Of a DNA stretch of 64,000 nucleotides, positions 11,050 through 41,676 are shown piece after piece. Under the pieces are notes generated by a model that was not told where the DNA came from, made no database searches, and saw only the letters and a list, made by a program, of their open reading frames with translations. Where the stretch lies: NCBI GenBank assembly GCA_973895155.1, contig OZ316892.1:27179233-27243232 (forward strand). The letters run 5' to 3'. The stretch comes from Marsupella aquatica. Lineage: Eukaryota > Plantae > Marchantiophyta. Positions within the stretch are counted from its first letter, which is position 1, and each line of letters starts with the position of its first letter. A program made the position numbers and the translations under genes.

Positions 11050-11619
11050 AACTTCACAACAGGGCAGGAATCCCCAATTCCCCCCGATCACCGACTAATT
11101 CTGCTGCAGCCAATCCAAAAACCCTTGTTAGGGAGTTCTCGCTGCATGTGCAACGAGTTCGTATGACGGTAGTGGACCGGCCCCAAGTGCTGACGTGGCC
11201 ATGATCGAGAGAACCTTGAGGGTATTCCAGAACAATGATGTTTCGCTGGACGCTGTAGCTCGCAACGAACGTCTATGCTTTATTATTAGCGACGAATCTC
11301 AGCTCGGGTATTACCTCGCCTCACCGTGCTGCTCCTCTGTGCTTTTCCTTCCTCACAAAAGCACAGTGCTGACGAATCGGTGCTCCTCTGTGCTTTTCCT
11401 TGCGCAGAGGTGACTCTGGCCTACGATTGAACGAAATTGCTATGCGGTGAGAGGACAGACGCAAATTCGTTTAGAATGATGTTATACGCTTCTGTGAAAG
11501 GGCTGTCTCTGTAAATGTGACGAATTCACGATGGTTCCTGGCAGTGGTCCAAATGGTGTCGAGACCTAAATGAATTTGGGCTTACCTGCTTTCCCGGGGA
11601 AGCTTGGGTAATCTGCTAT

Positions 11620-12784: not shown

Positions 12785-13645
12785 ATGGCCACCTTGAGCG
12801 ACGTCTACCATGCTGTGATTGATGCAGAGACCCAAATTGTGGGCCCAATGCATGTCAGAGTCCTCAATTTTGTAGCTCGAAATCCTTTCCCAAGGAAGTT
12901 TACGTATTGTGGATCCACTGAGAGGACTCGGATTGGAATGTGTAAGGTGTCTATTGATGGGCCAAATCACAAGCACTGTCTTCATGATTCGGCGGAGAAT
13001 GGTAACTATGTTGATATGTTTCGCTTTGAGGTCATTGTGTCAGATGACACTTTACAGACAAATTTTGGGCAGCCTGCACTTCGTGCTTCAATTTGGGACT
13101 CAGCTGCTTCTCTATTGGACATCTCTGCCCCTACATTGGCAGCTATGGAACCCCATGATCAATTCCAACGAGTCCACGATTGTACAAAGGATTTACCTGT
13201 CTGCAATGTCACTTTTAGGCTGCAACGCGGAGTAGTTCACCTTCAAGAATTGCACATCATTTCCAACAATAGTGTGTTGCAGCATAGTCGTATTTGGCAG
13301 CCATCGCTGACGCCAAGGCGAGGTGCCCAATGGAGCCCTTCATCAAGGGTCCCTTCTCCCGCTCCAGTCCTGATTGCATCTGTTCATACCACTCCACCAA
13401 GGATCGTTGTCAATGTTGTCCCTAGCATTACACCATCGTCAAATTCCAAGGCTGGATCGCAATACAAGACAAGCACATCGCAGACAACTTTCACTTCAAC
13501 TTCTGAAGCTATTAGTGTAGTAGATGATGATTGTGCAAGTGAGAAATTAGAGGACGTCGGGAACATGGTGTCCGTAGTAAAGAGGCTAGCCAATGCCTTC
13601 AGTGCATCGCTAGACATGTACTCCTCTCGGGGCAACAAAGATTAG
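12785..13645 (+). CDS. Intronless RPA70 C-terminal-like OB-fold protein with Ser/Thr/Pro-rich tail (probably transposon-borne)
   Basis: 286-aa open ORF. FTYCG...MCKVSID....HCLH...MFRFEVIVSDDT...LRASIWDSAASLLDISAPTLAAM follows the Rep_fac-A_C pattern (FxYxAC..CxKKV..C..YxLxVxVxDxT..xFD.AExLLGxSA.EL) with a degenerate Zn ribbon. Confidence 0.6.
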   Translation: MATLSDVYHAVIDAETQIVGPMHVRVLNFVARNPFPRKFTYCGSTERTRIGMCKVSIDGPNHKHCLHDSAENGNYVDMFRFEVIVSDDTLQTNFGQPALRASIWDSAASLLDISAPTLAAMEPHDQFQRVHDCTKDLPVCNVTFRLQRGVVHLQELHIISNNSVLQHSRIWQPSLTPRRGAQWSPSSRVPSPAPVLIASVHTTPPRIVVNVVPSITPSSNSKAGSQYKTSTSQTTFTSTSEAISVVDDDCASEKLEDVGNMVSVVKRLANAFSASLDMYSSRGNKD

Positions 13646-20309: not shown

Positions 20310-20729
20310 GCCATTGGCAGATGATCAGCTGAATGACAACTATAACTTATCTTCCCTAGTCAATATTTTTCTAGAATCGATACATTTATTAGTTTTGTAC
20401 ACTAAATAACTAATTAATATAAATTGTACACAAAACAAAAAAATTCAATTAAAAAAAGCATTCCTTTCAAGAGTACCGAAGCTTTTGTTATTTTGTCCTT
20501 GATCTCATCGTGCTTAATTGTGTTTTGATTCGCATTCACCAGCGGACATAGATATTGCAATTGCATGAACTTCAGTGGCGACAACGCTTCTACCGAGACC
20601 CCCAGGTCCTGATTTTCTAATTATAAGATACTATAACAATGACTATCCGGCAATGTGAAGTTTAGCCGGTGAAATTTGATTCCACTCTGCAACATCTCCA
20701 CTCCTTCATTGCACTAGTGGAAAATAGTG

Positions 20730-21350
20730 TCCTTAATGACTAGAATGAGGACTGAAAAATGAGTCATATGTACCAATATATGACTAGAGCTTTTTTGTCA
20801 TACCTGCCTCGTCTTTTAGGACAGTCAATTAAGACAAATGACTAAAACTCTCACCAGTCATTTATGGTAGTCCTAAATGACACAATATTTCTGAAATGAC
20901 ATGTTATCCTAAATGACTGAATGAACGGCCGTCAGTCATTTAGGCATGTCTTTAATGACACATATTTAAACAAATCATATTACAACACATGGCAACTACG
21001 CACGGTTGTCATTATATGTCATTTCAGACATGTCATAAATGACACAATAATAAATCATTTAAGGTGTCATTTAGTGTGTCATTGAAGGTGTTGTACATGG
21101 TGTCATTAAAAATGTCATACAAGGTGTCATACAAGGTGTCATTGAGAGTGTCATATAAGGTGTCATTGAGAGTCATTGAGGGTGTCATACAAGGTGTCAT
21201 TGAGGGTGTCATACATAGTATCATATAGGGTGCCATACAGGATGTCATATAGGGTGTCATTGAGGGTGTCATACAAGGTGTTATTGAGGGTGTCATACAT
21301 GGTATCATTGAGGGTGTCATACAGGGTGTTTTTAAGTAATGTCATTTGGA
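20730..21350. repeat. CACTA subterminal repeats, including a 12-bp tandem array (GTGTCATACAAG/GTGTCATTGAGG) at ~21060-21330
   Basis: Directly visible periodicity next to the CACTA terminus. Confidence 0.85.
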
Positions 21351-21436
21351 ATGTATCTAAGAAGAGCTCATAGTTATATTCAAAATCACATACAATGAAT
21401 CCACTTAAAACCCTAAACAAAGACATCACTTTGTGC

Positions 21437-21580
21437 ATCATCATTGTATTCAGAAATTCACACTCCAACATTCACAAGCTCTAATATAGAATAATTGAAA
21501 AAACAGAAATCATCATTGTATTCAGAAATTCATATTCCAACATTCACAAGCTCTAGTATAGAACAATTGAAAAAACAGAA
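21437..21580. repeat. Tandem duplication, 72-bp unit x2
   Basis: ATCATCATTGTATTCAGAAATTCA...GAAAAAACAGAA at 21437 and 21509. Confidence 0.9.
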
Positions 21581-21675
21581 GTCTTTATGATGAAGTGATA
21601 GAAAGTACACATTTTTCACTCGCATGAGTGAAACAATGGTAACCAAAATATTCAAAAATTCTTTGTTCTACATGA

Positions 21676-24123
21676 TCAGAGAAAATGTTCAACACTTCCC
21701 AAGAAACCTAGCATTCCACAATGTACATTCATTCCTAACACATTCCGTAAACAGAGTTGTTTCTCTTCTTTGTTGGGCATTGGCAATGCTGCATCACCAC
21801 AATACACTGCCTTAACTGATACTCGCACCCAAGGACTCTCAATCATGACACAATGAAATTTATCCTCTCCTGGTAACCCTGTCACTTCACCTCTAGCAAC
21901 AACTGTAGAGCGATCCACAACGCTTCGTACTTCTACAGCATCTCCTTTTGAAAACTGCCACACAAAATTGTTAGGACAAAATACTGTCTTGTAGTACTGA
22001 TTTGGGCATATCATCAATTTAAGAACATAAGCCAACTGAAAACAAATTCACCTTTGCTACTGGATTTGGGGAGAGAACTGGTCCTCATTCACTAGGTGAG
22101 ATAGTGATAGGGGTTGATTTCTTGAATCTCTTTGAAGGCCTAGGTGGTGTAGCCTCTTGTTCCTGAATTGCATTTGACACTATCTGTTCATCTGTGACAG
22201 CAATCTCATCACTCTCACCATTACCAATGCTCCTTTGTACAACGCAAGGTTCCTGCAGTGCTCCCAAATTTGCTTCTCCCATACTTGGCTTTGGCTTCTG
22301 CCTTGTTAAAGTATCTGATTTCTCTCGTTGTGATACAGGATTCTCCCCTGAAGAAGGTACCACAAAACCAAACAATGAATGCTTAAAAAACTTCATTCTA
22401 AATTGAAAAATAAACTATTGCATATGTAATATGTTTAGAGTATAAGTTTGTATGTTCTTACCATCACCATCACCTGAGAAAGTAAGAGAACGTTTTCTAC
22501 TACTACCTTTAGGCTCAACCACCACCTTAGTAGCAATTGCATTTGATAATTGCATATGAAACTGATTCTGTTGATTTTGTGCAATGAAAGAGGTCATCAT
22601 AGATGTCAAATTGTCCACTTTGAACTCAAGCTTGGTTAAATTCTCCATAGACTGTTCAAGCTTGAGTAATCGAGCTGGTTCCTCAATTGTAGTTTCCCTG
22701 GACAATGGAGTCTACATACACAAACACACCATACAATGTCAATCATCAATGATAATTTGAACATCATGGATAACTGATAATCAAAATTGAATATATACAC
22801 AGGTTTTCATTACATACCGCTGATCCATGTGCAGACTGATCCAATTCCAACAAAACTACTGCCTCGATGTTCACCACTGCCCATAGATGGACTAATCTGC
22901 ACTGGGGGGACTGGACTACTAGACACAAGTTTTGATATAATAGGGCTCATCATTCCTTTTGCTTTCTGGAAACACATAATCACATTCAAAGCAATTAGAA
23001 TATTAATGAGAACTCATCATGTCATTGTTTATTCCTATACTAGATAAACACTTCAATTCAAATGACAATCTAGACCTGCAGTGAGATGGACCATCTGAAG
23101 ATTCTTACCAATCTTTTTTCTGCTCCAGCAGCCCCTCCTCTTCCAAAATGCTCTTTGTTCACCACTTCTGCCCTCCTTGCTTTCATCACAGCACTCCTTG
23201 CAAGCAAAGCAGGACTATCAAAATGATCCACCAGTCGTGCCCATTTCAATGGGTCAACATATTGAGGTCTTGGTTTGGAGCGATCACGTTTACATACATC
23301 CTTCCAATAAATATTTAGTTTGTGACGTTCTCTTTTCAATAACGTCCGATAGTGACTAATAAATTTCTTGTCAGACACTGACTGCTTATCTAGATACTCC
23401 CAATCTGCCTCCATCAATTTCTGCACATCCTCAATTATGTTTGGATCTTGTTTGTTCCAATCAGGTTCTGATACATCAAAAAGCCTCAAGACATTGGCAC
23501 GTAGCTCCTCCATCCAATATGGTTTATTAGGATGAGAATCATCAATATCATTGTCATGAATCTGAAAAAAACACCACAAATGATAGTCATCAACATTGGG
23601 AATGAAACAAACACCCAATTGTTTCTGAGTACACGAATTATAGGCCACAATATGATATGTGCAATGAAAATCTTACCGTTATCAATTTTCCCTTCTTATT
23701 GTCAGCCCTTCTTGCACTACCGGTTCTCTGAAATTGTTTCTTGGCTTGCCTAGATTCCCTATGTTGCTCTGTTGCAGTCTTTCTTCCCTCTACATACACA
23801 ATGAGCATCCAATATTGATCATCCACAATTGCAAAATGAGGGACAAGAAATATTACAATATAATACCTAGGAGGCTTCATTGAAATTGACTTACCTGAAT
23901 CCTGACTGGATGTCATTACTGCAGAGTACCCAGATTTTCCAATCGATGTTGATGGAACCACCACTATACACATGCAAACCACTGAAGTTTTGAGTCCAAC
24001 ATTCATATAGATCAACATTGAAAAATACATTGAAAATCTTTGAAATTACTTACATTCAAATAGCTGGCCAGTCACAGGGTCTTTGTAACATTGCACCATG
24101 CCACTCATGGAAGGTCCAACCTT
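21676..24123 (-). pseudogene. TnpA/TNP1-like CACTA accessory gene of element A (5'-truncated, frameshifted last exon)
   Basis: Exon 23070-23560 KRERHKL..W..PRPQYVDPLKWARLVDHF..RS..MKARR..HFGRGG is Transposase_24-like. Last exon VVARGEV..KFHCVMI..VRVSV..AALPMP is Transposase_23-like. Both are homologous to the element B TnpA. Confidence 0.75.
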
Positions 24124-24990
24124 CACTAGTAGAAACCGGGGCAATTTAGACCATACCTTATAGGACTATGCCCACTAAGTCCTTTTTCCATACTTAAAAT
24201 GACTCGCACCCATTGCACCGGTTTTGTTGAAGACTAGAAAAGACTATGAGAGTTTTATGGTTCACTAAAAGACTATGAGAAGTAACCTTGCTACTTTGTG
24301 AAGGGTGAATAGTCTAGCACATCATGGGTAATGTTCACTCTATGTTGAGGAGGGGTAATTCTCCTTCATCTTTGAGCCGAAAGCACCGACGTCTATCGAG
24401 TGCCAAAGAACTGCTGGAGATCGAGCGAATTCACACTCTCAAATGTGGGTCGTGTCAAATTGTTTCCTCCATTGATGGCAGCCTTCTGTGAGATTGATTT
24501 ATACTGTGTGGCTATCTGGGAGTTTTGTTGACTCATTTGACACCGATACTCCCGTGATTTCCTCATACATAGTGCCACTGCCCCCCCGCATTGTGTTCAA
24601 TCCCTATAGCTTATAGCTGCACCACTCTTGGTGGCCCTTGCTCATGCCTTGGTTTTTTTTTCTTTTTCCCATTACAGTATACACCCCCTTCTTACTAATC
24701 AGGTGGATTAATTTAGTACTAGACAATGCTTTGACACTTTACACTTACACTATGCTGACCTACTGCGCCTTCTAGTGCTTATTCCCTGTTTTACATGTCA
24801 CGACTATTGTATGTGATTCAAATGCATGAAATGTTGTTGCAGATCTCCTTTGGTGAATCATAGCCACAATTAAAATTGAGGTGTTGGTGGAGAAATTGTA
24901 TTAGGGGATCAGTTTTGTGTGTGGGCTCAACATACCAAAAGTATGTGTGCTCTGCATCCTTGTGTGGCCATTCCAATTCATTGCAGTAGC

Positions 24991-25134
24991 AAATGCCTTT
25001 GTACCTTAAATGCTAAATATATTTTACTTTCTGTGCAGTCTGCTAAATTGTAGAGTCTATCTAAATGCCTTTGTACCTTAAATGCTAAATATATTTTACT
25101 TTCTGTGCAGTCTGCTAAATTGTAGAGTCTATCT
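24991..25134. repeat. Perfect tandem duplication, 72-bp unit x2, just upstream of the PHD ORF
   Basis: AAATGCCTTTGTACC...GAGTCTATCT at 24991 and 25063; each unit contains an acceptor-like TTTCTGTGCAG. Confidence 0.95.
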
Positions 25135-25145
25135 CATGCGCAGGC

Positions 25146-25826
25146 ATGGCACGGCCTAAAATTCAAGCCAAAAAGCATGTGACAGAGGTGAGAAACACAG
25201 GTGTACTTGGGGCAGATGCTACTAACTTCTCTGCAAGTCAGATTTTCCAGAAGGCAGCTCATTGTTGTGCCATTTGTGACGATGGTGGGGGCCTGGTCAT
25301 TTGTGAGGGCCCTTGCATGAGGCATTTCCACCTCAACCCGGAGTCTGACCTTGCTGCAGAAAACAACTGTCCAGGGGTGGGCCTCCCGTCAACACACCAG
25401 GGAGACTGGATGTGCACTGATTGTTTGGAGAAGCAAGCTAAGTGTGCACAGTGTGGGAAGTTGGGGTCCTATGAGGGCTCTGTTGATGCTGCAGCAAATG
25501 TTAGGAAATGTCCAGACCGTTTTTGTGTGAGATTTTTCTGTTTTGAGTGTTTGCCTGCTCATGCCACAGCTTGCCCACTTCATAGGTGCAAGGCATGTGG
25601 TGAGCATGATGATGACTACTGGACTGACATAGTCCACTGTGCTAGGTGTCCCACTATGTGGCACTATCATTGCCTGAAAGATCATCAAGCAGAGGGTTAT
25701 GCTTGTGACAGAGAAATCTATGATCACTCTGCACATGGTGTTGATCGATGGATATTTTATTGTCATCGCCATGCCATTGATCCTACCTCGCGCACTCCTG
25801 TGAGAGATCACATATCTTGGCTGTGA
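25146..25826 (+). CDS. Stand-alone EDM2-like composite PHD-finger protein (CACTA cargo)
   Basis: 226-aa intronless ORF: CAICDDGG.L.ICEGPCMRHFH...WMCTDC..K..KCAQCGKLGS...VRKC...C..FFC..C...CPLHRCKAC...CARCPT.WH..CL...IFYCHRHAIDPTSRTPVRDHI. This is collinear with the Arabidopsis EDM2 PHD region as I recall it (CAICDNGG..CEGSCLRSFH; CPLHKC; CRRCPKSYHRKCL; YCQEHEIDEELLTPVRDHV). Confidence 0.85.
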   Translation: MARPKIQAKKHVTEVRNTGVLGADATNFSASQIFQKAAHCCAICDDGGGLVICEGPCMRHFHLNPESDLAAENNCPGVGLPSTHQGDWMCTDCLEKQAKCAQCGKLGSYEGSVDAAANVRKCPDRFCVRFFCFECLPAHATACPLHRCKACGEHDDDYWTDIVHCARCPTMWHYHCLKDHQAEGYACDREIYDHSAHGVDRWIFYCHRHAIDPTSRTPVRDHISWL

Positions 25827-26364
25827 AGCTGAACATTGTACATGCACAGTGCACCTGATGTGGATGTACTATTTTTTGAGATTGCAGAGATTCCAATTTT
25901 GAAAAGGAGTTGGGTAGGCGAGTTTATATAGGCAGCACTTATCTTGTGCTCTGGCGTCAGTGGCTGGGTACATGCCTATACAAACTTATCCTTACAAGCC
26001 TTCTTGGAAGTATTTAGGCTGAGTGGTCATTTTCATTTTTATAAACACTTTCATCAGACTGCTAAATTAAAACAGGACTTCTAAGTTGTAAGCGTATAAA
26101 TTATCAAGCATGCAATTAATCAAATTGCCCTATAAGTTTGTCATTTGAATGTATCCTCCTTTACAACAAAATATGTATGTGCCATGACAAGTTGGTTGCA
26201 CTTCATTTCACCACGGATATGGATTTTGTAGTATATATTCAAACAATGTCCTGCATCCGTGCAGGTGCCTAGTACGTATTGTTCACATATCCCTTGTACC
26301 TATCAAAATCGGACCTGAGCACCAGTGGGCCAGATCAACTCAAAAAGCAGGAATTTTGAAGAGT

Positions 26365-26778
26365 ATGTTGGCTGAGGAGACGAAGCAACCAACCCCCATT
26401 CTGAAAGGGCTGAGCATGGTATTTGTGGAGGCGGGAATTGGAGAGGTTAAGTGCAAAGTGTACAAGTCCACAGTGCTTGACCTAGGTGGGACAGTGGAGG
26501 AGAATATAACAGAGGACACCACTCATGTCATTACTAAGTCATATCCCAAAGCCTGCCGCAAGTTTGGGAAGGGAGACATTCGCTTTTATGTCATGTCCCA
26601 TAATGTGTTTGTGGTTTCATATGCTTGGCTTGTGGAATCAGTAGCAGCTGGGAAGCGTCAAAACCCAATGGACTATGATCTTTTTGAGGCCTGGCCACGG
26701 AAGGGTCAGGATCCTTACAGAGAGGACTATGAGACAACAAGTGAGGAATGGGTCATTAGCGATTCTGAATCAGAGTGA
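26365..26778 (+). CDS. Stand-alone BRCT-domain protein resembling the N-terminal BRCT of plant DNA polymerase lambda (CACTA cargo)
   Basis: ILKGLSMVFV..G....KVYKSTVLDLGGTV......TTHVI...VVSYAWLVESVAAGKRQNPMDY has the BRCT hallmarks GG, THVI and WxxxS, followed by an acidic tail. The frame is open upstream to a possible acceptor at 26264. Confidence 0.8.
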   Translation: MLAEETKQPTPILKGLSMVFVEAGIGEVKCKVYKSTVLDLGGTVEENITEDTTHVITKSYPKACRKFGKGDIRFYVMSHNVFVVSYAWLVESVAAGKRQNPMDYDLFEAWPRKGQDPYREDYETTSEEWVISDSESE

Positions 26779-27211
26779 GGAGTAGTAGCATCAGTTTGGA
26801 CACAAGTTTTTTTGTATAAATCAGATCATTGAAATAAATGTGATCTTTGAACTAATGTACCTTGTTATGGTTGGTGGCAATTGGGCTTATTTTACTGTTG
26901 GCGGATTGTTGTTTCCTGCTGCCTGGGGGTGTCACTGTAAACGTACATGCAACGGCGGTACATTTGAGGACAGCGGAGGAGGTGGTGACACCCTCCAACA
27001 TTTAGGAATTTTGTGTCATTCACTTGACAATAGGTACACTACTTGCGAACCTGTTTTTTTCTTTTGGGGTGGTTTAGGGTTTGTGAGAATTTAGTACACG
27101 TTATGTTAACTCTTTTGGCAGATACAGTCAGGGATATATGGAACACAAATACCACCATTAGGCATCCTTGTTCACTGCTGTCCATGACTGCAGAGCTCCC
27201 AGCCTGTTACA

Positions 27212-30200
27212 ATGCACCCTGGTCACCACCCTCCCCAGACCCAGCCCAGGGCACAGGCACTGCCTTTGCATCATCCCACAAGGATATCACGCCATGATAA
27301 TAAGCTTTGGCAGCGTGAAAGGTTACGAACCAGACTTTCAGGAGCCAGTAGGATGAGATGTCCTTGTGCAATCTGCCAAGGATCCCGTACCAGGGGTCTG
27401 AATGAGGTTTGGCGGCATATCGCGGTTCATGGAAGAGATCCACGACATCGAGTTTGGAATGATCCTGCAGAGGAAGATTCTTCCGACGAGGAGTGGAGGT
27501 TAGAATTTGATGTTGCCAATGCTGCAAGACGGGCAAGTGAGGTTCTGCCTGGTGCATTTGAAAATGTTGTAGCTGGTCTCTATGGGTTGTCAGCTCTCCA
27601 ACGGGATGGTGCTCAGGCAGCACCACGTGACGAAGGAATTCATGTGGAAGAGATGGTGAGAGACATCTTCCAAGACTTGGATGCATTTCATGATGGGCTG
27701 GACAACGAAGAGGATACGGCTGCAGATGCAAGTGTGCCCCCTATCAAAGAGCCTCTTGATGAGTTTGAGATAGGGCAGGAAACCCCTGGGCATGATGGGA
27801 TGTTTGGCTCTCCCCTGCAAATACAGGAAGGCAGGAAGTCTTTGTACCCCGGTAGCAAATGTTCTAAACTGGGATTTGTCATCATGTTCCTGAACATTTG
27901 CGGCAACCACAATGTCCCCAACGTTTTGGTTTCTGAGTTGTTGGCATTCTTGCGAACAACTATGCTACTAGATGGTAATATTTTGCCCAAGAACATGTAC
28001 GAGGCAAAAAGATGCATATCTAATCTTGGATTGAACTATGATTCGATCCATGCCTGTCCTGATGGGCATGTTCTTTTCAGAAAGGAGTATAAAGAATCGT
28101 TGACATGCCCTAAGTGTGGGAAGCACAGGTATCGGAACTCAGGAAAGTCTATGGTTCCCGCCAAGGTACTTCGTCATTTTCCACTCATTCCCAGACTTCA
28201 GCGGATGTTCAGAAGCCGTGCCATCTCGGAGATGATGACTTGGGCAACTGACAAGAAAAGTGATGATGGCCTACAACGACATGCTGCAGATTCAAGGCAA
28301 TGGAAACTCATAGATGAGATGTATCCCGAATTTGCTGCTGAGCCGAGGAATGTCAGACTTGGGCTGTCATTGGATGGGGTAAACCCATTTGGAGACAAGA
28401 ACAACAAATTTTCGTGCTGGCATGTAACTATTTTGAATTATAACCTTCCTCCTTGGATGACTACAAAGCGATTTTTTGTTCTGATGGTCCTACTGATACC
28501 AGGGCCAGACAGTGCTGTATCTGCCAACATAGATGTGTTTTTGGCTCCCCTAGTGGAGGAATTGAGAAAGCTTTGGGAGGAAGGAGTTCTCACATATGAT
28601 GTCCTACAGAGGCTTGGGAGGTTAAACCCATTCATCCTTAGAGCCATTGTCATTCTGACTATAGCTGACTACCCAGCCCATGGGATGATATCAGGCCAAA
28701 CAACAAAAGGATATTGTGCTTGTACTATCTGTGGGCGCAATGTCACCAGTGAGTACTCCAGAGCCCTGCCAAAAGTGATATACATGGGCCATCGTCGTTT
28801 TCTGAAGGTAGATCACCCTTACAGAGAAAGACAGGCACTGATTGCACACTTTGGCAATGAGATTGAGCAACGTGGACCCCCGACACGAGTGACCAAAGAG
28901 GAGATCAGGCAGTGGGGAGCACTAAGGGATGACTATATCAAACGAGGGGGCAGGGAAGATGGAGTGAGTGATCCAATAAAGCGATATGGTGTAAAAAGAC
29001 TGAGCATATTGGACTTGGAGCTCAAGTACTGGAGGGTAAGCCTCTTGGAGTTGATGCTAATTGGGATACATGTTTTGGTTCAGAGCATGTGCATTCATTT
29101 CGAAGAGAGAGACTAAACTTGAGGCATTTCCTGACGCTTTTGCATTGCAACGATGCAGGAGTTTGAGCCAAGCAAACATAACATTGATGTTATGCACATT
29201 GAAAAGAATATTTGTGAGAGTCTACTCAGATTCTTGTGTGGAGAGAAAGACACTGGTTCAGTGAGATTGGATCTTGAACAGAGGGGAATGAAACCCCATC
29301 TTTGGTTGAGGCCACATGCCCACAGAGCTGATGTGCTCTTGAAGTACCAAGCGCCCTATGTTCTGACAGACATAGAGTGGGAACTATTTGTGCAGAGGTT
29401 GAGTTCTTTGAAGGTTCCTTCAAACTATGGCAGTGCTTTCAAGAAGCATATCATGACTAGAAAGCTTGGTAGTATGAAAAGCCATGACTACCATATGTTG
29501 ATCCAACAGGTGTTGCCTTTATGCTTGAGGGGCTTGTTGCAGAAGCCTGTTCGTACTGTGATCATGCGACTCAGTGATGTGTTTCGTCGTATTTGTGTGA
29601 AGGTTTGGGATGAAACACACTTCCCACAACTGACAAAAGATGTCGCTCAGGTGCTGTGTGACCTAGAGATTTATTTTCCTCCCGCATTTTTTGATGTCAT
29701 GACCCACCTACTTGTCCATGTTGTGGAAGAGCTACACCAATTTGGGCCTGTGAGTGCTCGTTGGTTGTACCCTTTGGAATGGTACATGAAGCTACTCAAA
29801 GGTCACGTGAGAACATATTACAAACCTGAAGCAAGCATGGCTAAAGGTTACATCAAGGATGAGACTCTGGGATTTCTGACCGAATACATAGCACAATATG
29901 AGCATGTGAAGACCAGGGTGTGGAATTCTGATGAGGAGGAAGGGGTGATAGGTGAAGTACTGGAAGGGGCTGCAACCACAAAGAACCTGACCATATCTAT
30001 GAGAGACTTGGCACATGACTTTGTATTGCACAACACTGTGGTGATGGAACCCTGGATACAGTGAGTGCATACATGTGCTATAATCCAGTTCATGAGCTTA
30101 AATGTTGTGTTCGTGTGGTTTTCTCCTTCAGCCTGTTCATGTTTACCCAAGCTAATGCTGTGTGGTTGTTCGTTCAGGGAGTATGAGTCATTGAAGGCGG

Positions 30201-30943
30201 CCCATCCCACTGCAGGAACAACTTTTCCAGGTTTCATGGAGTGGATCAGAGTGGCAATTAGAGAGCATCACGAGACCCACCCAGACATGGATGCAGATGT
30301 TTACCTACTGTCTAATGCCCCTAGCCTGAAAGTGAAGACTTACAAACGGATGAGAGCATATGGGAATCACTTCCGAGTGAAGGATGGTGACAGTGCCTAC
30401 AGGGTGATGAATGACTACGGGCTCATCACTGTATTTGAGCAACAGAGCCACAATCACGACAGGGCCTGGATGGAGATGGGATATGTGGGAGAATTAGTTG
30501 ACATATGGGCTCTGGACTATGGGGCGGTGTCCAGTCCTGTGATTCTTATGAAAGGTTCATGGGTGCGGCAGGATTGGCTTGGTAACAGGGCTACCATGAA
30601 GAGAGACAACGACGGTTTCTTGCTGGCCAATTTCAGAGGGAAATTGCCCGAATGGTCTGAGCCATTTGTGTTTCCTAGTCAGGTGGAGCAAGCTTTCTTC
30701 CTGGATGTGGAAGACTCCCCAGGTTGGCGTGTAGTGTGTCATAAACAGGCCAGGCAACGTCGGATGGAAGGATCAAACCTTGAGTTTCATTTACACTCTC
30801 ATAGTGCCTTTGATCGTCGGCGTTCAGACCAAGTGCCTGTAGTTCATGATAGCGGGGACTTCATTCCTGTGACAAGGGTAGATGCATTTGCTGAAGGAGG
30901 CGAATTCAGAGATGCAGATGCCAACAGTGTGCCTGTGCCATGA
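27212..30943 (+). CDS. CACTA transposase (TnpD/TNP2), three exons, apparently intact
   Basis: Exons 27212-29035, 29159-30060 and 30178-30943 splice in frame. RCPCAIC (Transpos_assoc), IHACPDG..CPKCG..RY, PRNVRLGLSLDGVNPFG, NYNLPPW, DYPA, HNIDVMHIEKN, MKSHDYH, FFDVMTHLLVH (DUF4218) and EPFVFPSQVEQAFF (DUF4216) are all present. Confidence 0.95.
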
Positions 30944-31099
30944 GTAATGTGAATTGTTTGTATGGACATTAGTGAGGGGAAGGATGTGTAATAAAGTAAT
31001 TCTGAAGCAACACAGATGTATGGATGGATGCCTGGTGATTGTGGTTGCATTGTGTTATACGGGGTGACCATAGATGACATGTTTTTGTGGTCCAGTAGG

Positions 31100-34000
31100 A
31101 TGGAACAGAGTGACACAGAGATGTGTGAGTATGAAAGGAAAGCTATGGAACAACGAGCATACGTGAAAGCCAAAATCGCAGAATTGGATCTGGAAAAGGA
31201 TGTGGCTGAATTGTAAGGGAACGATTCTCAACTACACCCCTCCGCTGAGTTTGTGTGACATGAATAGTTCAATGTGGCACTGAAATTGTGACTGTATTCT
31301 CATATTGGAATGTCGCAGAGCCACAGCATTTTCAAAGAAACAAAAGGAGTACGCAAGAAGGGTGACCAGCACTATCTCTGGGCCTGTGCGTCGGAGTGAC
31401 AGGTTGAGCAAGAAGGTCGTACCTACAATGGCAGAATGTGGAGATGACATTGATGCTGCACAGGTGGGTGCAGACACTAGACAAGAAGATGCAGATGATG
31501 AGTATTTTCCAGAGGAAATGGATGAGGATGGGGGTTATGAAGATGAATACATTGCAGAGCAGCCCCAAAAGAAACATGTAAGTAGTTTTCCCAACAAGGT
31601 TTTGAGTTAAAAACTCTTGTTTAGAGGTTTCATATGTTCAGTACTACACATATGTACCTTGCTTAGTTCCTGACATTGTAGTTGGTGATGTGATGCAGCG
31701 TCCTGCCAGTTCTGTTTTGCCTTCGAAGCCTGTGCATGCACCATACCAGCAGGGGGGGCTGACCTCTGATCAAGGTTGGCAAGGTGGTAGTAGTGGTAGA
31801 TCCCAGGCTGGTGCCCAATACTATGGCAGGGGGCAAGCTCTAGGTTATGCCCGTGGTAGAGGCAGAGCAGGTCCAAACCCACAATCTCGTGGGTATGGAT
31901 GTCCACCTCAACCATGGGGATGTGAGTATATATCTATATGCCAGTTCTTTGTGAAGGCATGGCACTCCTGAATTTCAGACTGCATATCAATTTTTGACAT
32001 TGTTTGGGATGTATTGGATTCAGACAACATGAAATTCTGTCCACCTGCCATTGCATGCAGATTCTGCCCAACCTGATTGGGCAAATGCTAGTAATGATCA
32101 GTTCCAATGTCCATAAGGACAGACATGGGTTGAACCAGGTTGGGAGGATGGTGGTGGGTCGTGGAATGAACAAGGTTGGGAAGGTGGTGAAGGTAATTGG
32201 CAGGGATATCAAAATTCAGTACCTACAAACGCTGGAAGAGGAGCAGGTAATGTCTGATCTTGTCAGCAATGGAAGAACTCATTATATGTGGAGTCCATTC
32301 ACGTGGGGGGGACTCTGCACATGTATAATGATAGAAAATGTATGTGTGTAGGTTGGACAGTCGAACCATCGACTCAAGTATTCACTAATGCCCCTATGCA
32401 GATGCAGCACAGAAGGGGGACAGGTATGTCGGTGAATGTTCAATTGTTTTCCTACAGTTTGTACTTAGTTTTCAGTACATATGTTTGCACACACATACCT
32501 AGAAAGTGACATCATCCGGCCCCTGTACTAGGCTGGACAGGTGGTCCAGGGTCGCAACAATTTCAGAGTGCAGTCCCTGCACAGGCATCTACAGGCAGAG
32601 CTACAGGTATGTATGTTTGAAGAATTTTTCTTGAAGTGAAGCATTGAATGTTGCCGTCATCCATTCTGCTATATGTAGTTCTCAAGCATGAATGGCATTG
32701 TATTTTCCCAGGTGGCTTCAGAACCCCAGGTAGGGTGAATGAAGGGGTGGCCAATACAACGCCCAGTACTACCGAGAGTAGTGCACGAGGGGAGGTGACA
32801 AAGAAAGGGAACGTAAAGTTGAATGAGAGACAATGGGTGGATGCTGAGTGTCCTCGCAAGAACCGATGGCATGCTGATTTGAAAGTTGAAGTATTGCGTT
32901 GGTTAGATGTGAGTGTTATTAATTTTAAAAAACAGCATCCAAAAGATTGGAAGACTGTATGTGAAAATGTTGCTGCCAAATGGAATTATGTGGGCAGTGA
33001 TGATGGCGTGGACATAGGTTGCCTAGAGAGTACAGCAGGTAAAATTATCAAGCAAGAGAGGTGGAGAATGCATAAGGCTTGGAAGGAAGGTGGGGAGAAG
33101 CCAGATATGCCTCCACCAGCCAGTTGTGATGATAAAGTGTGGGCAAGGTTAGTAGCTTATTTTGTAATAGATGCTTCAAAAAAGAAGAGTTCACAGATGA
33201 CCGAGGCCAGGTTGAGTGTTCAGAACCCTAATCTGACAGGAAGGACCGGCACTGCACCGACAGCTAAGCGTTTGGTAAGAATGAATGGCCTAGCTATGTA
33301 ATTTATGCTACACTATGTACTATTTTTTAGTGTAAACCCATACATGTAAACTTTGTTTTTTAGTGTACGTTCCCTGAATATTGATCGATAACTTGTGTTT
33401 GCCATGCATGTGCAGAAAGCCCAATTGGGGCAAAGCCCTGCAAAAGAAGAGTTGAGGGCTGAAATTGTGAACACCCGGGCTCAAGAGGGTGCATCTGAAT
33501 CCTCCAAGCATGTAAGTTATATGAGTTCTGATTGGTAATTGAATGACCTGCGTTGAATTTCAGGTGTACACTGTATATAACATTGATTGTGCATATATTG
33601 CCCAACATTTCATATGGAGTGATTGAACCTATACCCCTGTGTCATGTAGGGAGGTGGATCTTCACTTACAGAGATAAGTGGTCGTTTGAAGGCTGTCGAA
33701 ACATGTCTTCCAGAGATCAATGAACGTTTGAATTCATTGACTGACTTGTTCCATGTGAATTTCAAGACATTAATGGAAGCTGTTGTGTCGGTGAGAGATA
33801 AAATTGATTCCAATTCTGTAGGAGTTCCACCATCACCACTTGAGGTGGCAAAGTCGATGCACTCTTCTGGCATGCCAACGACATGTAGGCTTGAAGGTAA
33901 GGCCTTTACAACTGTGTGGGATATGATTATTAAATGTATAGTTTGAATTAACATTGTTTGTTGAATGTGTTATTTTCAGTAACATATATTGTGGTTGTTG

Positions 34001-34806
34001 TGTCCATAGAGAATAAGACAGGTGCTACAGAGAAGAAGTATGAGAACCTGGCAAATACTCGCTGTAATTTAGAGGCAACAAAGTTGCAGTCTATACAAGC
34101 AACTTGTTTGACAGAGGGCAGTCAACCATGTTTGGATGAGGATGACATTGGCAAGGGAGTGGATGATATCAATGTTGGGGCAAATGAGGATATCAGCAAG
34201 CATGACAATGATACCATTGAGCCAGATTCATGCTATGTAGATCTTGACTCCATTGCAGAGATAAATGATTTGCAGAATGTATCATTCTCAATGACAGGTG
34301 TGCCTCTTGTTGAGATAAATCCAACCAAAGAGTTAGTTGGTATGACACTCCCAGGTGATGAACCTGCTACTGTGACAGTCCTAACAGAGGAACCTACTGA
34401 GCCTAGCTTCACTACTGTGAAGAGAGGAAGCATGCGCACACGAGGCAAGTCTGCTGGTGGGAGCAGAGCCACGTCAAAGGTTTCATACAAACCTCCAAGA
34501 ACAGTGCTGGCAGAAAGATCTAAGGTGGAAGTGGGGAAAGCACCTAATGTTGAGGGACAAAGTGGCTTGTTAGCTGTTGATGAGAGTGGAACACGAGTAG
34601 GATTTGCCAGAGTGCAGGTTGGTTCCACAACGTTCCATGGCAAGAGGATTCCCCCAGGTTATTCAGTAGTGTTAGTCACATTACTAGTGAAACCTAAAGC
34701 TGTCCTTCCCATTCCAAACACAAATGATGATCCTCCTCAAAAGACACTTGGAGATGCTGCAGGTTCTTTGGTATTATGGCCAAGCAAGTTCATAGAGGAT
34801 CCATAA
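31100..34806 (+). CDS. TnpA/TNP1-like CACTA accessory gene of element B (multi-exon; exact splicing not fully resolved)
   Basis: Starts MEQSDTEMCEYERK, followed by many small GT-AG exons. Contains a Transposase_24-like block (KQERWRMHKAW..PP..CDDKVWARLVAYF..SSQMTEAR) and a Transposase_23-like end (FHGKRIP..LPIP..TLGDAAGSLVLWP). Confidence 0.8.
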
Positions 34807-35304
34807 CAATGTCATGCCATTATTTGTTTGTAGTGTGAGTCATGTTATGTAGATTTTAGATGTCAAGAAGCAGTACAAGAATCATGTCCTCTTGGAGATT
34901 CATAGTATCATGCATGTGCTTTCAGTTATCTCATCCTACAGTCATCAATTACGAGTTCCTGTTTTGTCTAAATTACATTGATCACATTGTAAACTATTCC
35001 ATTGGAATTCAAATGATCTTCATTTTTTAGCAAGATTGTGATTGTGTTTAATTTTTATGAATGTTTTATGTAGGATCTGCTTATATGATGCTTTGTTTCA
35101 TGTAGATGTCATTCATGCTATGTTCATTTATTGTATTCAATGTGTTATATTTCTAAAGTTAGAACATCAGGTTTCTATGTATTGTAATGTCGAGTGCTCT
35201 CTCTCCTTATGAACTGTCCCTCTGTGTTCATTAGTCATGGTTATAACTTGCATGTGAACCTTATTAGTTATAAACATGAGTATATAGAGTCCCAAATGGT
35301 TCTG

Positions 35305-35645
35305 TTGTGTGACGCGGGCCAGGGTCTCCATTGGTCTCTCCTGTGACACTAAATAGTCACACGCTAGTCGTTGTTGAATGCGGGTAAGTCATGTATGTGA
35401 CTTACGATGTGACTCGCTGAAGTCATATTGCAGTCACGTCGAAACAAGGCTAGACTCCACAATAAAGTCACAGATCAGTCACAAATGGGTATCAAGCAAG
35501 TTGCAAAGCCCAGTATCAATAGTGACTTCCATTTTTTGGTCTCAACTTTTGCAACTCCAAGGGTCACAGCGTGGGTCAAGTCACGTTGAGTCACAATGAA
35601 GTCACATGAGCCAAAATGAGTCATATATTGCGGTCTCAGTTCACC
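35305..35645. repeat. Right subterminal repeats of CACTA B (GTCAC/GTGAC motifs)
   Basis: Many AGTCAC/GTGAC motifs in both orientations leading up to ...TTCTTCTAGTG. Confidence 0.8.
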
Positions 35646-35661
35646 TCGAATTCTTCTAGTG

Positions 35662-36488
35662 AAGGATAGTGTCAGCAGTCTATGGTCAGAGAAGAGGATG
35701 TGTGGGGATTATCGGGCACTCAACCAGGTAACTCAGCAGGATAGATATCATGTCCCCACACCAGAAGAGATCTTTGATGGGCTAGGAAAGTCTCAATATT
35801 TCTCTATTTTAGATCTACGGCAAGGGTTCAACCAAATCATTGTGGTAGAGAAGGACAAAAAGAAGATTGCATTCCATGGCAGTGACAAGTTATGGGAATG
35901 GCTATACATGCCATTTGGCACAATGAATGCAGCCATCTTCTTTCAGAAGGTCATGGATATAGTAAAGGAAGGTGTAGCACACATCAAATATTACATTCAT
36001 GATGTCATAGTGCATAGCCCTTCATTTGACCAGCACATGGATGATTTGGAGGATCTGTTCGAAAGGCTCAGAAAAGCAAATCTCAAATGTCATTCCAAGA
36101 AATGTGAATTTAGGGTGAATACTGTGATCTATCTGGGACACCGAGTGATTCTAGATGGACTCATGCTAGAGGAGGCCAAGGTTCTGACTATCAACAACAC
36201 GAAGGCACCTACAGATTTCAACAAACTATGCATCTTTCTAGGTCTGTGTAATTACTACCACACACATGTTGAGAATTTTAGTACCATTGCAAGCCCTTTG
36301 AATTAGTTGTTGAAAAGGGATACCCCATGGTACTGGACTGTAGAATGGCAGACTACATTTGAAAAGATCAAAGCAGTACTGACCACACACCCAGTTCTAC
36401 ATCAGCCTCATTTCAAGATCCCTTTCATTCTTCACACTGATTGGAGTGCTATTGGTCTTGGAGCCATTATGGGACAACAAGATGATGG
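35662..36488 (+). pseudogene. G1 reverse transcriptase and start of RNase H
   Basis: EKRMCGDYRALN, LDLRQGFNQI, MPFG, degenerate YIHDV, LHTDWSAIGLGA; internal stop present. Confidence 0.85.
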
Positions 36489-38589
36489 TGAACCAGAAGT
36501 GGTGGACCTCCCACCACGTGCACGTCCAAACTCGCTTCTTAGCCTTGAAACAAGTCAAAACTTGCACTAACACAAAATGTTGGGGCAAATTCTCTCCGAC
36601 TATACTCCTTGTCGTTAGCGACCCCTCCCATACGAAGCCGCACTTGCCCTCATTAGCATAACAGTTGCTCAACGGTCTTTACTATCTGCACAAGTAACCA
36701 ACCAATTGGTAAGAACCCGTCTTGATCTCAGAACACCCAAGATCATTGTCTTGCATCACTCTTAACAATTGTTAGTAAGTAGGTCAGCGGATAGAGCCTC
36801 CCAGGCCCGCATGGCCTTGCCATAAGCTGAAACTAAGGTCGGCATCATTGTTCGTCCGGAATAGTCTATCTATCGGATGTCGCCCAAGCTTCCCCACTTT
36901 ATATCCGTCAATGGCTGACCGCCCTGCCTCCAGGACATGCCCATGGCCCAAACTCAATTTGTCACAAACTAGTAGTAACACGCCGGGATCATTCAGTTTC
37001 TAGATCTTATCCACCTCTCTGTGAAACCGGGTTCCGCTCAACCTCTCACCATGCATTGGGACCAGATCTCAATGGCAGCCCCCAGAGTCTACTTGGTTCT
37101 ACCTCTCCAACATCAGGTCCCCATGGGAACCAAATGTGGTTTGGTTACTGTTTGACTTCGGATTGGCAAGAGGGACTCCCCCCATTGCAAGCCTCAAAAC
37201 CAAAACCATCCAATGCACAATCAAAGAGCACCATGAGGTAGATTTCTTCATTATCTTTCCAACGAGCCCAAGAACTCCCCCAACAGAGATCCGGTCGTCG
37301 CGTTATGCTTGTTTTTGCTTCAAAACTTGAAACAACGTATCTTCATCGATCGTGATCAGCTCGAGCTCAAACTTGAGAGGACCACTCCCCTCATATATGC
37401 TTCTGGGGACCTGCCACCCCCGGACCAGCTTTGGTCCCCTATCTTTGGCCCCCTACCCGAGGGTCCGTGGGCCCCGCCTCTTAGCTCGAAACGAAGATAA
37501 TCGAAAACCTTTTGTAACTTGGCCTTGAGCACAAATTGTGGCATAGGGGGCTAAAAGTTGCGGCCCTAAACCCGCTCTGGTCCAGGCAACCCCCTCTTGG
37601 TCCATCGATGTGCGACGACTCTAATCGAGTCTAAATCGGCCATAACTTTTGGCCCCTAGGTCCGTTGGCCAAAAAATATGCGGCCCATGATCGGGCTCAT
37701 GTGGGGCTTCTTGGGCCCCTATGGTGATCCATTGGAAAAATAGTTCATTTTTCCATGATTGGCAATGGACCCAAACTACAAGTATGCGGCTTGAGTTGGC
37801 CATAATTTTTGGCCACTGGGTCCGTTGGCCGAGAAATATGTGGCCCCATGATCGGGCTCATGTGGGGCTTCTTGGGCCCCTATGGTGATCCGTTGGAAAA
37901 ATAGTTCATTTTTCCATAATTGGCAATGGACCCAATAGAGTTATTTGAAGCGCGCTTTTCTCAAGCCTTGTCCTTGCTCTTACTAGCCTCCTCTTTGTTA
38001 GTTGCATCCCTAATGGCCATGATGGTAGCAAATCTAAGAGGGGCTCAACGCTGGAGTTAGGCAACGTCGGAGCAATTATGAGTAGGTGAAAGTTGTATTC
38101 GCGACTTGTACCCCCTTTTTTTAAATGGTTGATGTCTACGTCAACCGAATGGGTACCATACCACACGCCTAGACCAATTGGCGTCTAGAAGGTGATGTAA
38201 GGTAACAAGTGGTCCGTCCTATAAGGTAGACACGGACCTAGTTGAAGTGCGCATCTCAAGTCTTAGAGAAATTCAACTTATCTAACAAATGAGTTAGATG
38301 TCAGTATGCTTGGGCAAGCCGACTCCTTGTCCAACAAACCCTTCAATCTTCCCCGGAGATAACTCCCACAGGTTTGATCAAACTTGCTTACAATGTAATG
38401 CAAGTACCAAATAGCTTAACCGTAAGGATAGCAAAGTGGTTGCCCAACAACCACTAATTGGTGCAGGTTTGAGAACACTCTCGAGAGGCTAAGTGTGGTG
38501 AAACCAGGATACAACTTGCTTAGGTAATTGCAATCGCCCTACTTCAATAAGGGGGTGTTAAAAACTATTTCTTCCCTATGATTAATTCA
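36489..38589 (-). repeat. G2 3' LTR (~2.1 kb)
   Basis: TGAA...TTCA termini; adjacent CTTAACCCTCCTCT is a PPT on the minus strand; 36675-38385 is highly similar to 54794-56975; contains ~160-bp subrepeats. Confidence 0.7.
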
Positions 38590-41258: not shown

Positions 41259-41594
41259 TGTGGGGAGAAATTAGATCAGGAAAAACCCCGGGAAAAACAC
41301 TCCAAACATACACGTGCTCAATAGTTACGTGGTTTGCCTCAAGGTTGGCTACGTCCACGGGAAGACCAAGCTTTATTAATGGTTATGTGTTTACTCAAGC
41401 ATCACCATAGCTCTCATTTCTTCAAGCTCTCATCTCTTGCTATATCACTGTGTTCTCTCTTGAGAACTCTCTTGTGTGTTCTCACTCCACATAGAAGTTG
41501 AAGAGATAAGGACCAATCTCTTCAACTAGGGTTTACTCTAATCCTAGTTAACATACTAACCATAGTTCAACCCAAGACTGAGTTAACCTCTACA
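41259..41594 (-). repeat. C1 3' LTR
   Basis: Near-identical to 50263-50585 apart from a small indel and substitutions. Confidence 0.95.
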
Positions 41595-41676
41595 AACTCC
41601 CCCTTGACTCATGTCTTGGGAGGGTTCATAACATTGTCTTTTCCTTACAAGTTCCTCCGCGGGAAGTTCAAGATAG

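What the first reader, a model, noticed from the sequence alone, without database searches (positions are those of the whole stretch)
24124..35661. CACTA transposon carrying a two-gene chromatin/repair cargo module (EDM2-type PHD reader + BRCT) upstream of its transposase: candidate new anti-silencing system
Seen: between the left TIR and the transposase lie two co-oriented, stop-free, intronless ORFs, one a composite PHD protein and one a BRCT protein, whereas most neighbouring TE ORFs carry stops or frameshifts. Established: canonical CACTA elements encode TnpA/TnpD; EDM2 reads H3K9me2-containing marks and, with ASI1 and AIPP1/EDM3, promotes full-length transcripts through heterochromatin; some plant DNA transposons encode anti-silencing proteins (VANC of VANDAL Mutators). 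Inference: this family may have captured a heterochromatin reader and a repair-scaffold domain to transcribe through silencing, choose targets or repair excision sites. I know of no described CACTA family with this cargo, but could not search.
Basis: partly seen in the sequence, partly recalled or inferred. Interest (0 to 1): 0.9.

Follow-up and report, generated by a model that had tools for sequence, protein, structure and literature searches.

The report
Transposon carrying its own histone reader
A plant jumping gene with an intact transposase, likely present in many copies, also carries a gene for a small conserved protein predicted to grip histone tails, which would likely help it stay active in silenced chromatin; its second extra gene (BRCT) is likely cut short in this copy.

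Summary
The element is real: CACTA-type ends at 24124 and 35661, an intact 1163-aa TnpD, TnpA-like exons, and two upstream ORFs. The cargo is no one-off. Contigs of five public runs cover both ORFs at the depth of the transposase; in three of the four runs laid over the flanks that depth is far above the flanks. The 226-aa PHD protein belongs to an old, well-supported clade of stand-alone ~220-aa proteins that keep their zinc ligands down to 37% identity. It is EDM2's 2.5-finger module without EDM2's other domains. Its flexible N-terminus fits the published histone-H3-mimic pattern (9 of 19 relatives, against 3 of 136 other hits). Corrections: this copy has no target-site duplication, and its BRCT ORF likely lacks a first repeat (three runs show at least 77 to 333 extra bases just before its ATG; a relative has tandem BRCTs). 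Expression, histone binding and anti-silencing are untested; TnpA is already a known CACTA anti-silencer. Best reading: a selected, transposon-borne reader acting as adaptor or decoy in silenced chromatin. I found no description in print. New variant of a known kind.

The parts
24124..24134 (+). Left terminal inverted repeat, CACTAGTAGAA
24124..24473 (+). Left subterminal region, six GACT[AC] motifs (window mean 1.3 per 350 bases, maximum 7); sparser than the right end
24785..24788 (.). Point at which contigs of other copies leave this copy (165 and 162 unmatched bases): this copy likely lacks a segment here
   Evidence: tables 7 and 8, records 4 and 10
24991..25134 (+). Perfect 72-base tandem duplication holding the acceptor-like site before the PHD ATG
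   Evidence: (D14)
25146..25826 (+). ORF for a 226-aa stand-alone EDM2-type 2.5-PHD protein; residues 26-226 fold confidently
25146..25175 (+). N-terminus MARPKIQAKK, fitting the H3-mimic pattern M-small-R-x-K with a second lysine at position 9; low model confidence over residues 1-25
26357..26358 (.). Likely deletion junction (2-base overlap): other copies carry at least 333 more bases here, where a first BRCT repeat would lie
   Evidence: records 5, 25; record 5
26365..26778 (+). ORF for a single BRCT domain with acidic tail, 137 aa; 58% to the second repeat of tandem-BRCT protein P0161, 56% to P0006
26943..26946 (.). Third point where other copies carry extra sequence (about 127 bases in X6)
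   Evidence: record 5; table 7
27212..29035 (+). TnpD exon 1 (Transpos_assoc, Transposase_21 E 9e-70)
29159..30060 (+). TnpD exon 2 (DUF4218)
30178..30943 (+). TnpD exon 3 (DUF4216)
31284..34806 (+). Series of likely TnpA exons; 32648-33301 matches Transposase_24 weakly (E 0.0035, below cut-off); gene model not completed
35312..35650 (.). Right subterminal repeats, 13 [AG]TGACT in 350 bases (window mean 0.5)
35651..35661 (-). Right terminal inverted repeat
20712..24123 (-). Left flank: 3' part of a different CACTA element (end CACTAGTGGAAAA at 20712, TnpA-like exons 33% to this element's), cut off at 24123
35662..36306 (+). Right flank: low-depth reverse-transcriptase fragment, unrelated to the left flank

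Best explanation
This is a CACTA-type DNA transposon with an intact transposase that carries a conserved accessory gene for a stand-alone EDM2-type PHD protein, which is predicted to bind histone H3 tails and likely acts as an adaptor or decoy that keeps the element usable in silenced chromatin. Shown: the anatomy; the presence of both ORFs across copies in several runs; the age and conservation of the PHD clade; the loss of all non-reader EDM2 domains; the H3-mimic-pattern N-terminus. Inferred: the element amplified recently (uniform high contig depth with 0-5 differences over 380-590 bases). Inferred: the gene is expressed from the left-end promoter by alternative splicing, as TnpA/TnpD are. 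Inferred: the module reads H3K9me2-containing tails as Arabidopsis EDM2's does. Inferred and weakest: with no effector domain of its own, it works by occupying marked nucleosomes on element copies and by offering its H3-like tail to host readers or writers, alongside the DNA-binding anti-silencer TnpA. The BRCT gene is a second standing passenger, likely a tandem BRCT in the common form and truncated here; it would most simply be a protein-binding adaptor, with a role at excision breaks possible but unsupported. My odds by step: PHD gene is a selected accessory gene 0.75; BRCT gene likewise 0.55; the role is to counter or bypass silencing 0.4.
For: Family-wide cargo: X1 contigs at depth 1641 (25880-26358) against 1554-1782 over TnpD; X2 TnpD contig 4166 against 41 for a flank contig; ratios; in X6 one diverged contig links BRCT to the TnpD start (record 5). 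Selection: five full-length relatives of 217-245 aa at 81, 75, 53, 37, 38%. Cys kept 22/22, 22/22 and 18-20/22 against 29-83% of non-C/H/W columns (Fisher p 0.025 to 1e-7 for the 7 rows tested). The 11 stand-alone rows form one clade, 100/100, stem 1.09 changes per site. 3 of the 4 listed nucleotide variants in the PHD ORF are silent. Fold: mean pLDDT 85, closest solved structures are tandem PHD modules of NSD2/3, JADE1 and BRPF1 (Z up to 5.9, modest). EDM2-type: full-module matches are EDM2-like proteins, named ones from liverworts; Atlas top hit is a plant PHD_NSD cluster at 0.91. H3-like tail: pattern met by 9 of 19 stand-alone proteins against 3 of 136 other hits; window score at positions 2-10 beaten by 0.04% of shuffles. 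PHD sequence is at high depth in another organism's run (X7) where the rest is near background. Precedent: H3K9 methylation persists on TnpA-activated Spm elements; EDM2 binds H3K9me2 (reviews); VANC arose from a captured host chromatin protein.
Against: No function was measured. The genomic setting of the protein relatives is unknown (contigs of 0.9-13 kb that I could not open), so linkage of PHD to a CACTA transposase is shown only for this family. PHD depth above TnpD depth, and PHD-only cover in X7, could mean the gene also sits in other elements. Many relatives are frameshifted or cut (e.g. P0012, P0014, P0046, P0141, P0143, P0150), and homology search favours intact ORFs. No codon-level dN/dS: only 4 PHD and 5 BRCT variants were listed, and 4 of the 5 BRCT ones change the residue. 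The tree does not reject NSD-like or canonical EDM2 as sister (p-AU 0.42, 0.09). The module has changed: the second finger has Cys where EDM2 has His and is about 20 residues shorter, and the acidic residue before the first Cys is lost, so mark specificity may differ. The tail motif was noticed after the fact, relatives are not independent, liverwort EDM2-like proteins also begin M-A-R and score 14-16 against 20, and a basic N-terminus may be only a nuclear signal. In X6 a variant that skips part of BRCT has depth 376 against 186 for the intact form. TnpA alone suffices for anti-silencing in Arabidopsis Spm.
Confidence: 0.45

Rival explanations
1. Target-site tether: the PHD protein is a selected accessory factor, but it steers the transposase complex to H3K9me-rich, repeat-rich chromatin where insertions do little harm, as chromodomains do for some plant retrotransposons (recalled). 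BRCT would be the link to TnpD or TnpA.
For: Same conservation evidence. This copy lies between two other transposon remnants in a window dominated by transposon ORFs. A reader with no effector suits a tether. PHD fingers fused to transposases are known (Rehavkus, PMC6446971 passages).
Against: One insertion site, itself rearranged, says little in a repeat-rich genome. No part of the protein is known to bind the transposase. The H3-like tail is not needed for tethering.
Confidence: 0.25
2. Neutral or relic passenger: host gene pieces captured long ago and copied along in a recent burst, with no current use to the element (Pack-CACTA-like).
For: A recent burst copies any passenger intact. Broken relatives are common. 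BRCT is likely truncated here and broken in an X6 variant. CpG depletion in both ORFs (0.22, 0.32 of expected) points to long methylation.
Against: The clade has diverged to 37% identity with ligands kept and length fixed at about 220 aa, far from host EDM2-type proteins (about 30%). The transposase is intact, unlike Pack elements. Three BRCT sequences at 55-58% share 49 invariant columns. CpG depletion is similar in the intact TnpD exons (0.23-0.42).
Confidence: 0.15
3. The PHD gene belongs to a separate mobile cassette, or to small host genes, and this CACTA lineage picked it up once; the selection seen in the clade was exerted elsewhere.
For: PHD depth exceeds TnpD depth 1.5-4.2 times and about tenfold in X6; X7 holds PHD patches at depth up to 10,505 with 13 or less over BRCT and TnpD. 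Context of the relatives unseen.
Against: Sister CACTA families with diverged spacers and transposases would give the same pattern at an 80-85% laying threshold. The window-wide repeat scan listed no inverted ends around the PHD ORF among its 25 longest pairs (not a targeted test). High depth in X7 speaks against a single-copy host gene.
Confidence: 0.15

Closest known systems
CACTA/En-Spm elements with TnpA and TnpD (maize Spm, Arabidopsis Spm1/Spm3)
   Same: CAC..GTG ends, subterminal repeats, TnpD with Transposase_21/DUF4218/DUF4216, TnpA-like exons downstream. TnpA is itself a sequence-specific anti-silencer (bioRxiv 10.64898/2026.08.24.746577, passages).
   Different: Two extra protein genes between the left end and TnpD; the words PHD and BRCT do not occur in that preprint's main text or in the Arabidopsis TE-product atlas PMC13547354.
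EDM2 and EDM2-like proteins (ASI1-AIPP1-EDM2 complex)
   Same: The whole 2.5-finger PHD module with its C-terminal H-x-I..TP.RDHI-type motif; about 30% identity.
   Different: No RFD domain, no methyltransferase-like ELP domain, no proline-rich tail (domains as listed in PMC7529245, passages; Pfam). Second finger shortened with a His-to-Cys ligand swap. H3-mimic-pattern N-terminus. Sits in a transposon.
VANC proteins of VANDAL Mutator elements
   Same: Accessory gene of a plant DNA transposon, derived from a host chromatin protein (MAIN; PMC13547354, passages).
   Different: Different superfamily and fold; VANC binds DNA motifs and has shown activity, whereas this is a predicted histone reader with no tested activity.
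TET/JBP-carrying fungal DNA transposons, including EnSpm and Plavaka
   Same: CACTA-clade elements with a separate captured chromatin gene, proposed to escape silencing (PMC12730594, passages).
   Different: An eraser enzyme in fungi, against a reader with no catalytic part in a plant.
Rehavkus (Mutator group) and other PHD-bearing transposases
   Same: PHD finger on a DNA transposon (PMC6446971, passages).
   Different: There a single finger is fused to the transposase; here a composite module is its own gene.
H3 N-terminal mimic proteins (H3TMs)
   Same: Start with M-small-R-x-K and a disordered tail (PMC8166343, passages: 48 of about 21,000 human proteins).
   Different: Those are host proteins; here mimic and reader are on one transposon-borne chain, and binding is untested.

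Membership tests
CACTA/EnSpm superfamily | 5'-CAC..GTG-3' inverted termini | tested here: met
   CACTAGTAGAA / CACTAGAAGAA; definition in PMC12730594
CACTA/EnSpm superfamily | [quoted passage not shown] | tested here: met
   PF02992 E 9e-70, PF13960, PF13952, PF13963; CTIC at 504 and HLLVH at 791, between IADYPA at 484 and YPLE at 812; the D/D/E assignment is recalled
CACTA/EnSpm superfamily | Insertion makes a 3-base target-site duplication | tested here: inconclusive
   This copy has none (CTT against AAG), but its flanks come from two unrelated elements, so it is not an intact insertion; no other insertion site could be read
CACTA/EnSpm superfamily | TnpA-like second gene and subterminal repeats | tested here: met
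   PF03004 E 0.0035, below cut-off; 33% to the neighbouring element's exon, E 2e-15; 13 [AG]TGACT at the right end
EDM2 / EDM2-like proteins | Composite module of two and a half atypical PHD fingers | tested here: met
   Profile positions 33-215 match EDM2-like proteins, best named one E 2e-33; alignment
EDM2 / EDM2-like proteins | RFD and methyltransferase-like (ELP) domains | tested here: not met
   226-aa ORF ends right after the module; no other Pfam hit. Not filed as an EDM2; it is an EDM2-type module
EDM2 / EDM2-like proteins | Binds H3K9me2-containing tails and AIPP1/EDM3 | not testable with these tools
   Needs biochemistry; the primary papers were not held
VANC-type anti-silencing factors | MAIN/plant-mobile-domain-related fold, DNA-motif binding | tested here: not met
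   Both ORFs match only PHD or BRCT families and folds
VANC-type anti-silencing factors | Expression in trans demethylates and activates cognate copies | not testable with these tools
   No RNA or methylation data
Pack-CACTA | Non-autonomous: no intact transposase | tested here: not met
   TnpD 1163 aa, open
Pack-CACTA | Cargo is a recent fragment close to a host gene and differs between copies | tested here: not met
   Cargo shared by copies in five runs; about 30% to the nearest host-type proteins found; this host's own genes could not be searched
H3 N-terminal mimics (H3TM) | Starts with M-small residue-R-x-K | tested here: met
   MARPK; 9 of 19 stand-alone relatives, 3 of 136 others
H3 N-terminal mimics (H3TM) | Tail is bound or modified by H3 readers or writers | not testable with these tools
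   Needs peptide binding and methylation assays
Tandem phospho-binding BRCT scaffolds (BRCA1, Rtt107, TopBP1 type) | Two packed BRCT repeats with a phosphate pocket in the first | tested here: inconclusive
   Window ORF has one repeat; relative P0161 has two, about 50 residues apart, 21% alike; PDB matches weak and spread (best E 3.5e-5); structure model unusable

The most novel reading that the evidence does not exclude
A lineage of plant CACTA transposons has kept, over a long time, a dedicated chromatin gene that joins a histone-H3-tail mimic to the EDM2 heterochromatin reader: a transposon-encoded histone mimic that sits on silenced nucleosomes and diverts host H3K4/H3K9 readers or writers, with a tandem-BRCT partner. 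That would be histone mimicry, known from viruses, used by a DNA transposon against host silencing.
Probability: 0.2. Interest if true: 0.9.

Novelty: new variant of a known kind. Interest (0 to 1): 0.68.

Why it matters
Known transposon counter-measures in plants work through DNA: VANC and TnpA bind motifs and cause demethylation, and H3K9 methylation stays on TnpA-activated elements. How such elements cope with the histone layer is open. A small, single-exon, transposon-borne reader of the EDM2 type gives a direct handle: it can be expressed, tagged and assayed for mark binding and for effects on cognate copies. It is also a natural minimal version of the EDM2 module, for which my PDB searches found no entry, and its H3-like tail makes histone mimicry by a transposon testable.

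Tried and rejected
No whole genome is held, so copies could not be collected and dN/dS not computed. Run search: no RNA holder listed; this says nothing about expression. X8 and X9 gave only 7 and 5 short contigs and are not used. The metagenome scan returned 11 loci, all host EDM2-type transcripts or unrelated PHD genes, none of the stand-alone clade; scans of viral and prokaryotic contigs found no relative. Search for a decayed first BRCT repeat in the spacer 25827-26385: best score 37, 40 shuffles up to 38, rejected. Plant polymerase-lambda BRCT as donor (recalled likeness): PDB profile match only E 1.2, not supported; Atlas hits all under 0.9. BRCT structure model unusable, pLDDT 35. Docking of residues 2-31 onto residues 27-226: no verdict, score 0.26 against a mark of 0.34. 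Donor test: sisterhood with short liverwort EDM2-like paralogues has support 30/80 only; the alternatives are not rejected. Shared 6-8-mers between the left and right 350 bases are no more than background, so the pairing of the ends rests on the TIRs and on continuous depth. Viral structure library: no match at E 0.001. Earlier-findings look-ups by sequence, by place and by the six-word query were blank. Literature searches for this cargo: (0 papers hold BRCT, CACTA, transposon, encodes); listings only, none on a PHD- or BRCT-carrying CACTA. Repbase and subscription journals were not searchable.
Full report
Anatomy. The stretch 24124-35661 is bounded by CACTAGTAGAA and its near-perfect inverse. 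Inside, all on the plus strand, lie a 226-aa PHD ORF (25146-25826), a 137-aa BRCT ORF (26365-26778), a TnpD gene of three exons that splices to 1163 aa without a stop (27212-30943), and a run of TnpA-like exons to 34806. The right end has 13 [AG]TGACT repeats in 350 bases against a window mean of 0.5; the left end has six GACT[AC]. There is no target-site duplication. The left flank is the cut-off 3' part of another CACTA element and the right flank a reverse-transcriptase fragment, so this copy is rearranged, recombined or mis-joined. The host is a land plant, possibly a liverwort or moss; this rests only on the nearest named EDM2-like proteins (Marchantia, Riccia, Calypogeia) and is weak.

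Is the cargo part of the family? No genome is held, so I used public runs. Nine of 11 listed runs hold the cargo region, five of them half its words or more, under three organism labels. I laid 8 of the 11. In X1, X2 and X4 summed contig depth rises at the left end, stays high across PHD, BRCT, TnpD and TnpA, and falls at the right end: BRCT bin 0.92-1.24 times the TnpD median, PHD bin 1.5-4.2 times, left-end bin 0.33-0.90 times, TnpD 18-137 times the right flank. Single contigs agree: in X1, 1641 for the PHD-BRCT spacer and 1554-1782 for TnpD, with 0-5 differences per contig. The tool warns that depth is no copy number, so 'tens to about a hundred near-identical copies' is an inference. X5 covers all parts at low depth (27-53 per contig). 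In X6 a diverged contig of 1381 bases joins BRCT to the TnpD start. The 'this copy only' refutation therefore fails.

This copy is not the common form. Contigs at main depth leave the window sequence at 24787, at 26357/26358 and at 26943-26946. The middle break lies 8 bases before the BRCT ATG, with 77, 78 and 333 unmatched bases in X1, X5 and X6. A search for longer relatives found P0161, 295 aa, with two BRCT repeats, the second 58% identical to the window ORF. No remnant of a first repeat was found in the spacer. The simplest reading is that the family encodes a tandem BRCT and this copy has lost the front part; I could not read the missing bases, so this is inferred. In X6 a variant skipping 26697-26903 has depth 376 against 186 for the intact contig, so BRCT is often lost. 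Still, three sequences at 55-58% identity share 49 invariant columns. No donor was identified.

The PHD protein. Five relatives of 217-245 aa were found at 81, 75, 53, 37 and 38% among 116 candidates. A profile search of 1.84 billion representatives gave 563 hits; among the best 150, the top ones are more short proteins of this kind, some broken, followed by EDM2-like proteins that match positions 33-215, while NSD-like proteins match only about 29-171. In a tree of 53 rows chosen from the 145 with enough cover, the 11 stand-alone rows form one clade (100/100) on a long stem. A 26-row tree puts them beside short liverwort EDM2-like paralogues with support 30/80 and rejects neither alternative. 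Cys residues are kept 22/22 in the two closest relatives and 18-20/22 in the distant full-length ones, against 29-83% for other columns; this is protein-level evidence of purifying selection, biased by searching for intact ORFs. Of the variants that the read tool listed (the best 40 per call), 3 of 4 in PHD, 1 of 5 in BRCT and 5 of 11 in TnpD are silent: too few for dN/dS. The model is confident from residue 26 on (mean pLDDT 85) and resembles tandem PHD modules of NSD, JADE1 and BRPF1 (Z at most 5.9). Against EDM2 (domain list in PMC7529245, passages) it lacks the RFD, methyltransferase-like and proline-rich parts, and its second finger is shortened with a His-to-Cys swap. PHD sequence is more abundant than the rest of the element in X1, X2, X4 and X6, and in X7 only PHD patches are at high depth, with in-frame loose ends resembling the relatives (frames, read by eye). 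So the gene is shared by further high-copy repeats whose nature I could not see.

The tail. The protein begins MARPKIQAKK, in a region of low model confidence. This fits the published H3-mimic pattern M-small-R-x-K (PMC8166343, passages; 48 of about 21,000 human proteins). Nine of 19 proteins that I assigned to the stand-alone group by length and likeness start this way, a tenth has it at an internal Met, and six have lysine at both positions 4 and 9; of 136 other hits 3 do, all 320-386 aa, the one looked up being a grass protein. Scored against H3 residues 1-9 (recalled), the window's positions 2-10 are beaten by 0.04% of shuffles of its first 30 residues, or 1.3% if any position is allowed. 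Against this: the motif was noticed after the fact, the rows are kin, liverwort EDM2-like proteins start M-A-R and score 14-16 against 20, and a nuclear signal would look similar.

How it likely works. Established: EDM2's fingers bind H3K9me2 and the ASI1-AIPP1-EDM2 complex favours full-length transcripts through heterochromatin (PMC7472560, PMC7529245, PMC10241880, passages; EDM2 affects transposons in both directions, PMC3632883, passages; the primary biochemistry papers were not held). Arabidopsis TnpA activates cognate Spm copies through DNA demethylation while H3K9 methylation stays (bioRxiv 10.64898/2026.08.24.746577, passages; supplements not seen). Inferred: a reader with no effector would act as adaptor or competitor on those still-marked nucleosomes, and its tail could engage host H3 readers or writers. 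I put 0.45 on this overall, 0.25 on a role in target choice, 0.15 on a neutral passenger and 0.15 on a cassette whose selection happened elsewhere. Acceptor-like AG sites just before the PHD and TnpD ATGs fit expression by alternative splicing from one left-end promoter, untested.

Comparison and novelty. By ends and transposase it is a CACTA element; it is not a Pack-CACTA, not a VANC system, and the protein is not an EDM2. Accessory chromatin genes on DNA transposons are a known kind: VANC from MAIN (PMC13547354, passages), TET/JBP on fungal EnSpm (PMC12730594, passages), PHD in Rehavkus transposases (PMC6446971, passages); a gene-capture review (PMC13317346, passages) does not mention PHD cargo. 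Unchecked notes of this scan report PHD fingers on several marine transposons. Seven literature searches (listings only) showed no CACTA with a PHD or BRCT gene and no transposon histone mimic; Repbase, subscription journals and supplements were not seen and may hold such a family. Verdict: observation partly confirmed, interpretation partly supported, new variant of a known kind, interest 0.68.

Noticed in passing
window 20712-24123 (-): A second CACTA family, also at high contig depth (about 4000 in X2, 250 in X1), with a 12-base tandem array (21019-21362) in its subterminal region; truncated by the element studied.
   Followed up: partly
window 24120-24123 and 35662-35665: The four bases outside each end (CCTT, AAGG) are inverse complements although the flanks are unrelated; chance (1 in 256) or a target preference.
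   Followed up: no
window 18448: A further CACTA-like end (CACTACAACAAA) with no partner found in the window.
   Followed up: partly
proteins P0032, P0040, P0058; L004, L005: Short EDM2-like, PHD-only proteins (P0032 named from a grass) also start M-A-R-x-K, outside the stand-alone clade where tested (P0032): possibly a parallel origin of tail plus reader.
   Followed up: partly
proteins P0013, P0016, P0018, P0024, P0029: Liverworts have a clade (99/94) of 620-770-aa EDM2-like paralogues that end shortly after the PHD module, without the methyltransferase-like part.
   Followed up: partly
window 24991-25134: Perfect 72-base tandem duplication just upstream of the PHD ATG; very recent or an assembly artefact; X5 shows a joint across it.
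   Followed up: partly
window 36675-38036 and 54794-56626; 41291-41595 and 50283-50586: Two pairs of long direct repeats (89-98% alike), likely LTR pairs, around retrotransposon ORFs.
   Followed up: no
window 10309-11094 (-); 550-2506 (+): Host-gene exons: a ZW10 kinetochore-like exon (E 0.003) and exons of an unassigned protein.
   Followed up: partly
window 12782-13645 (+): 287-aa open frame with no Pfam match.
   Followed up: no
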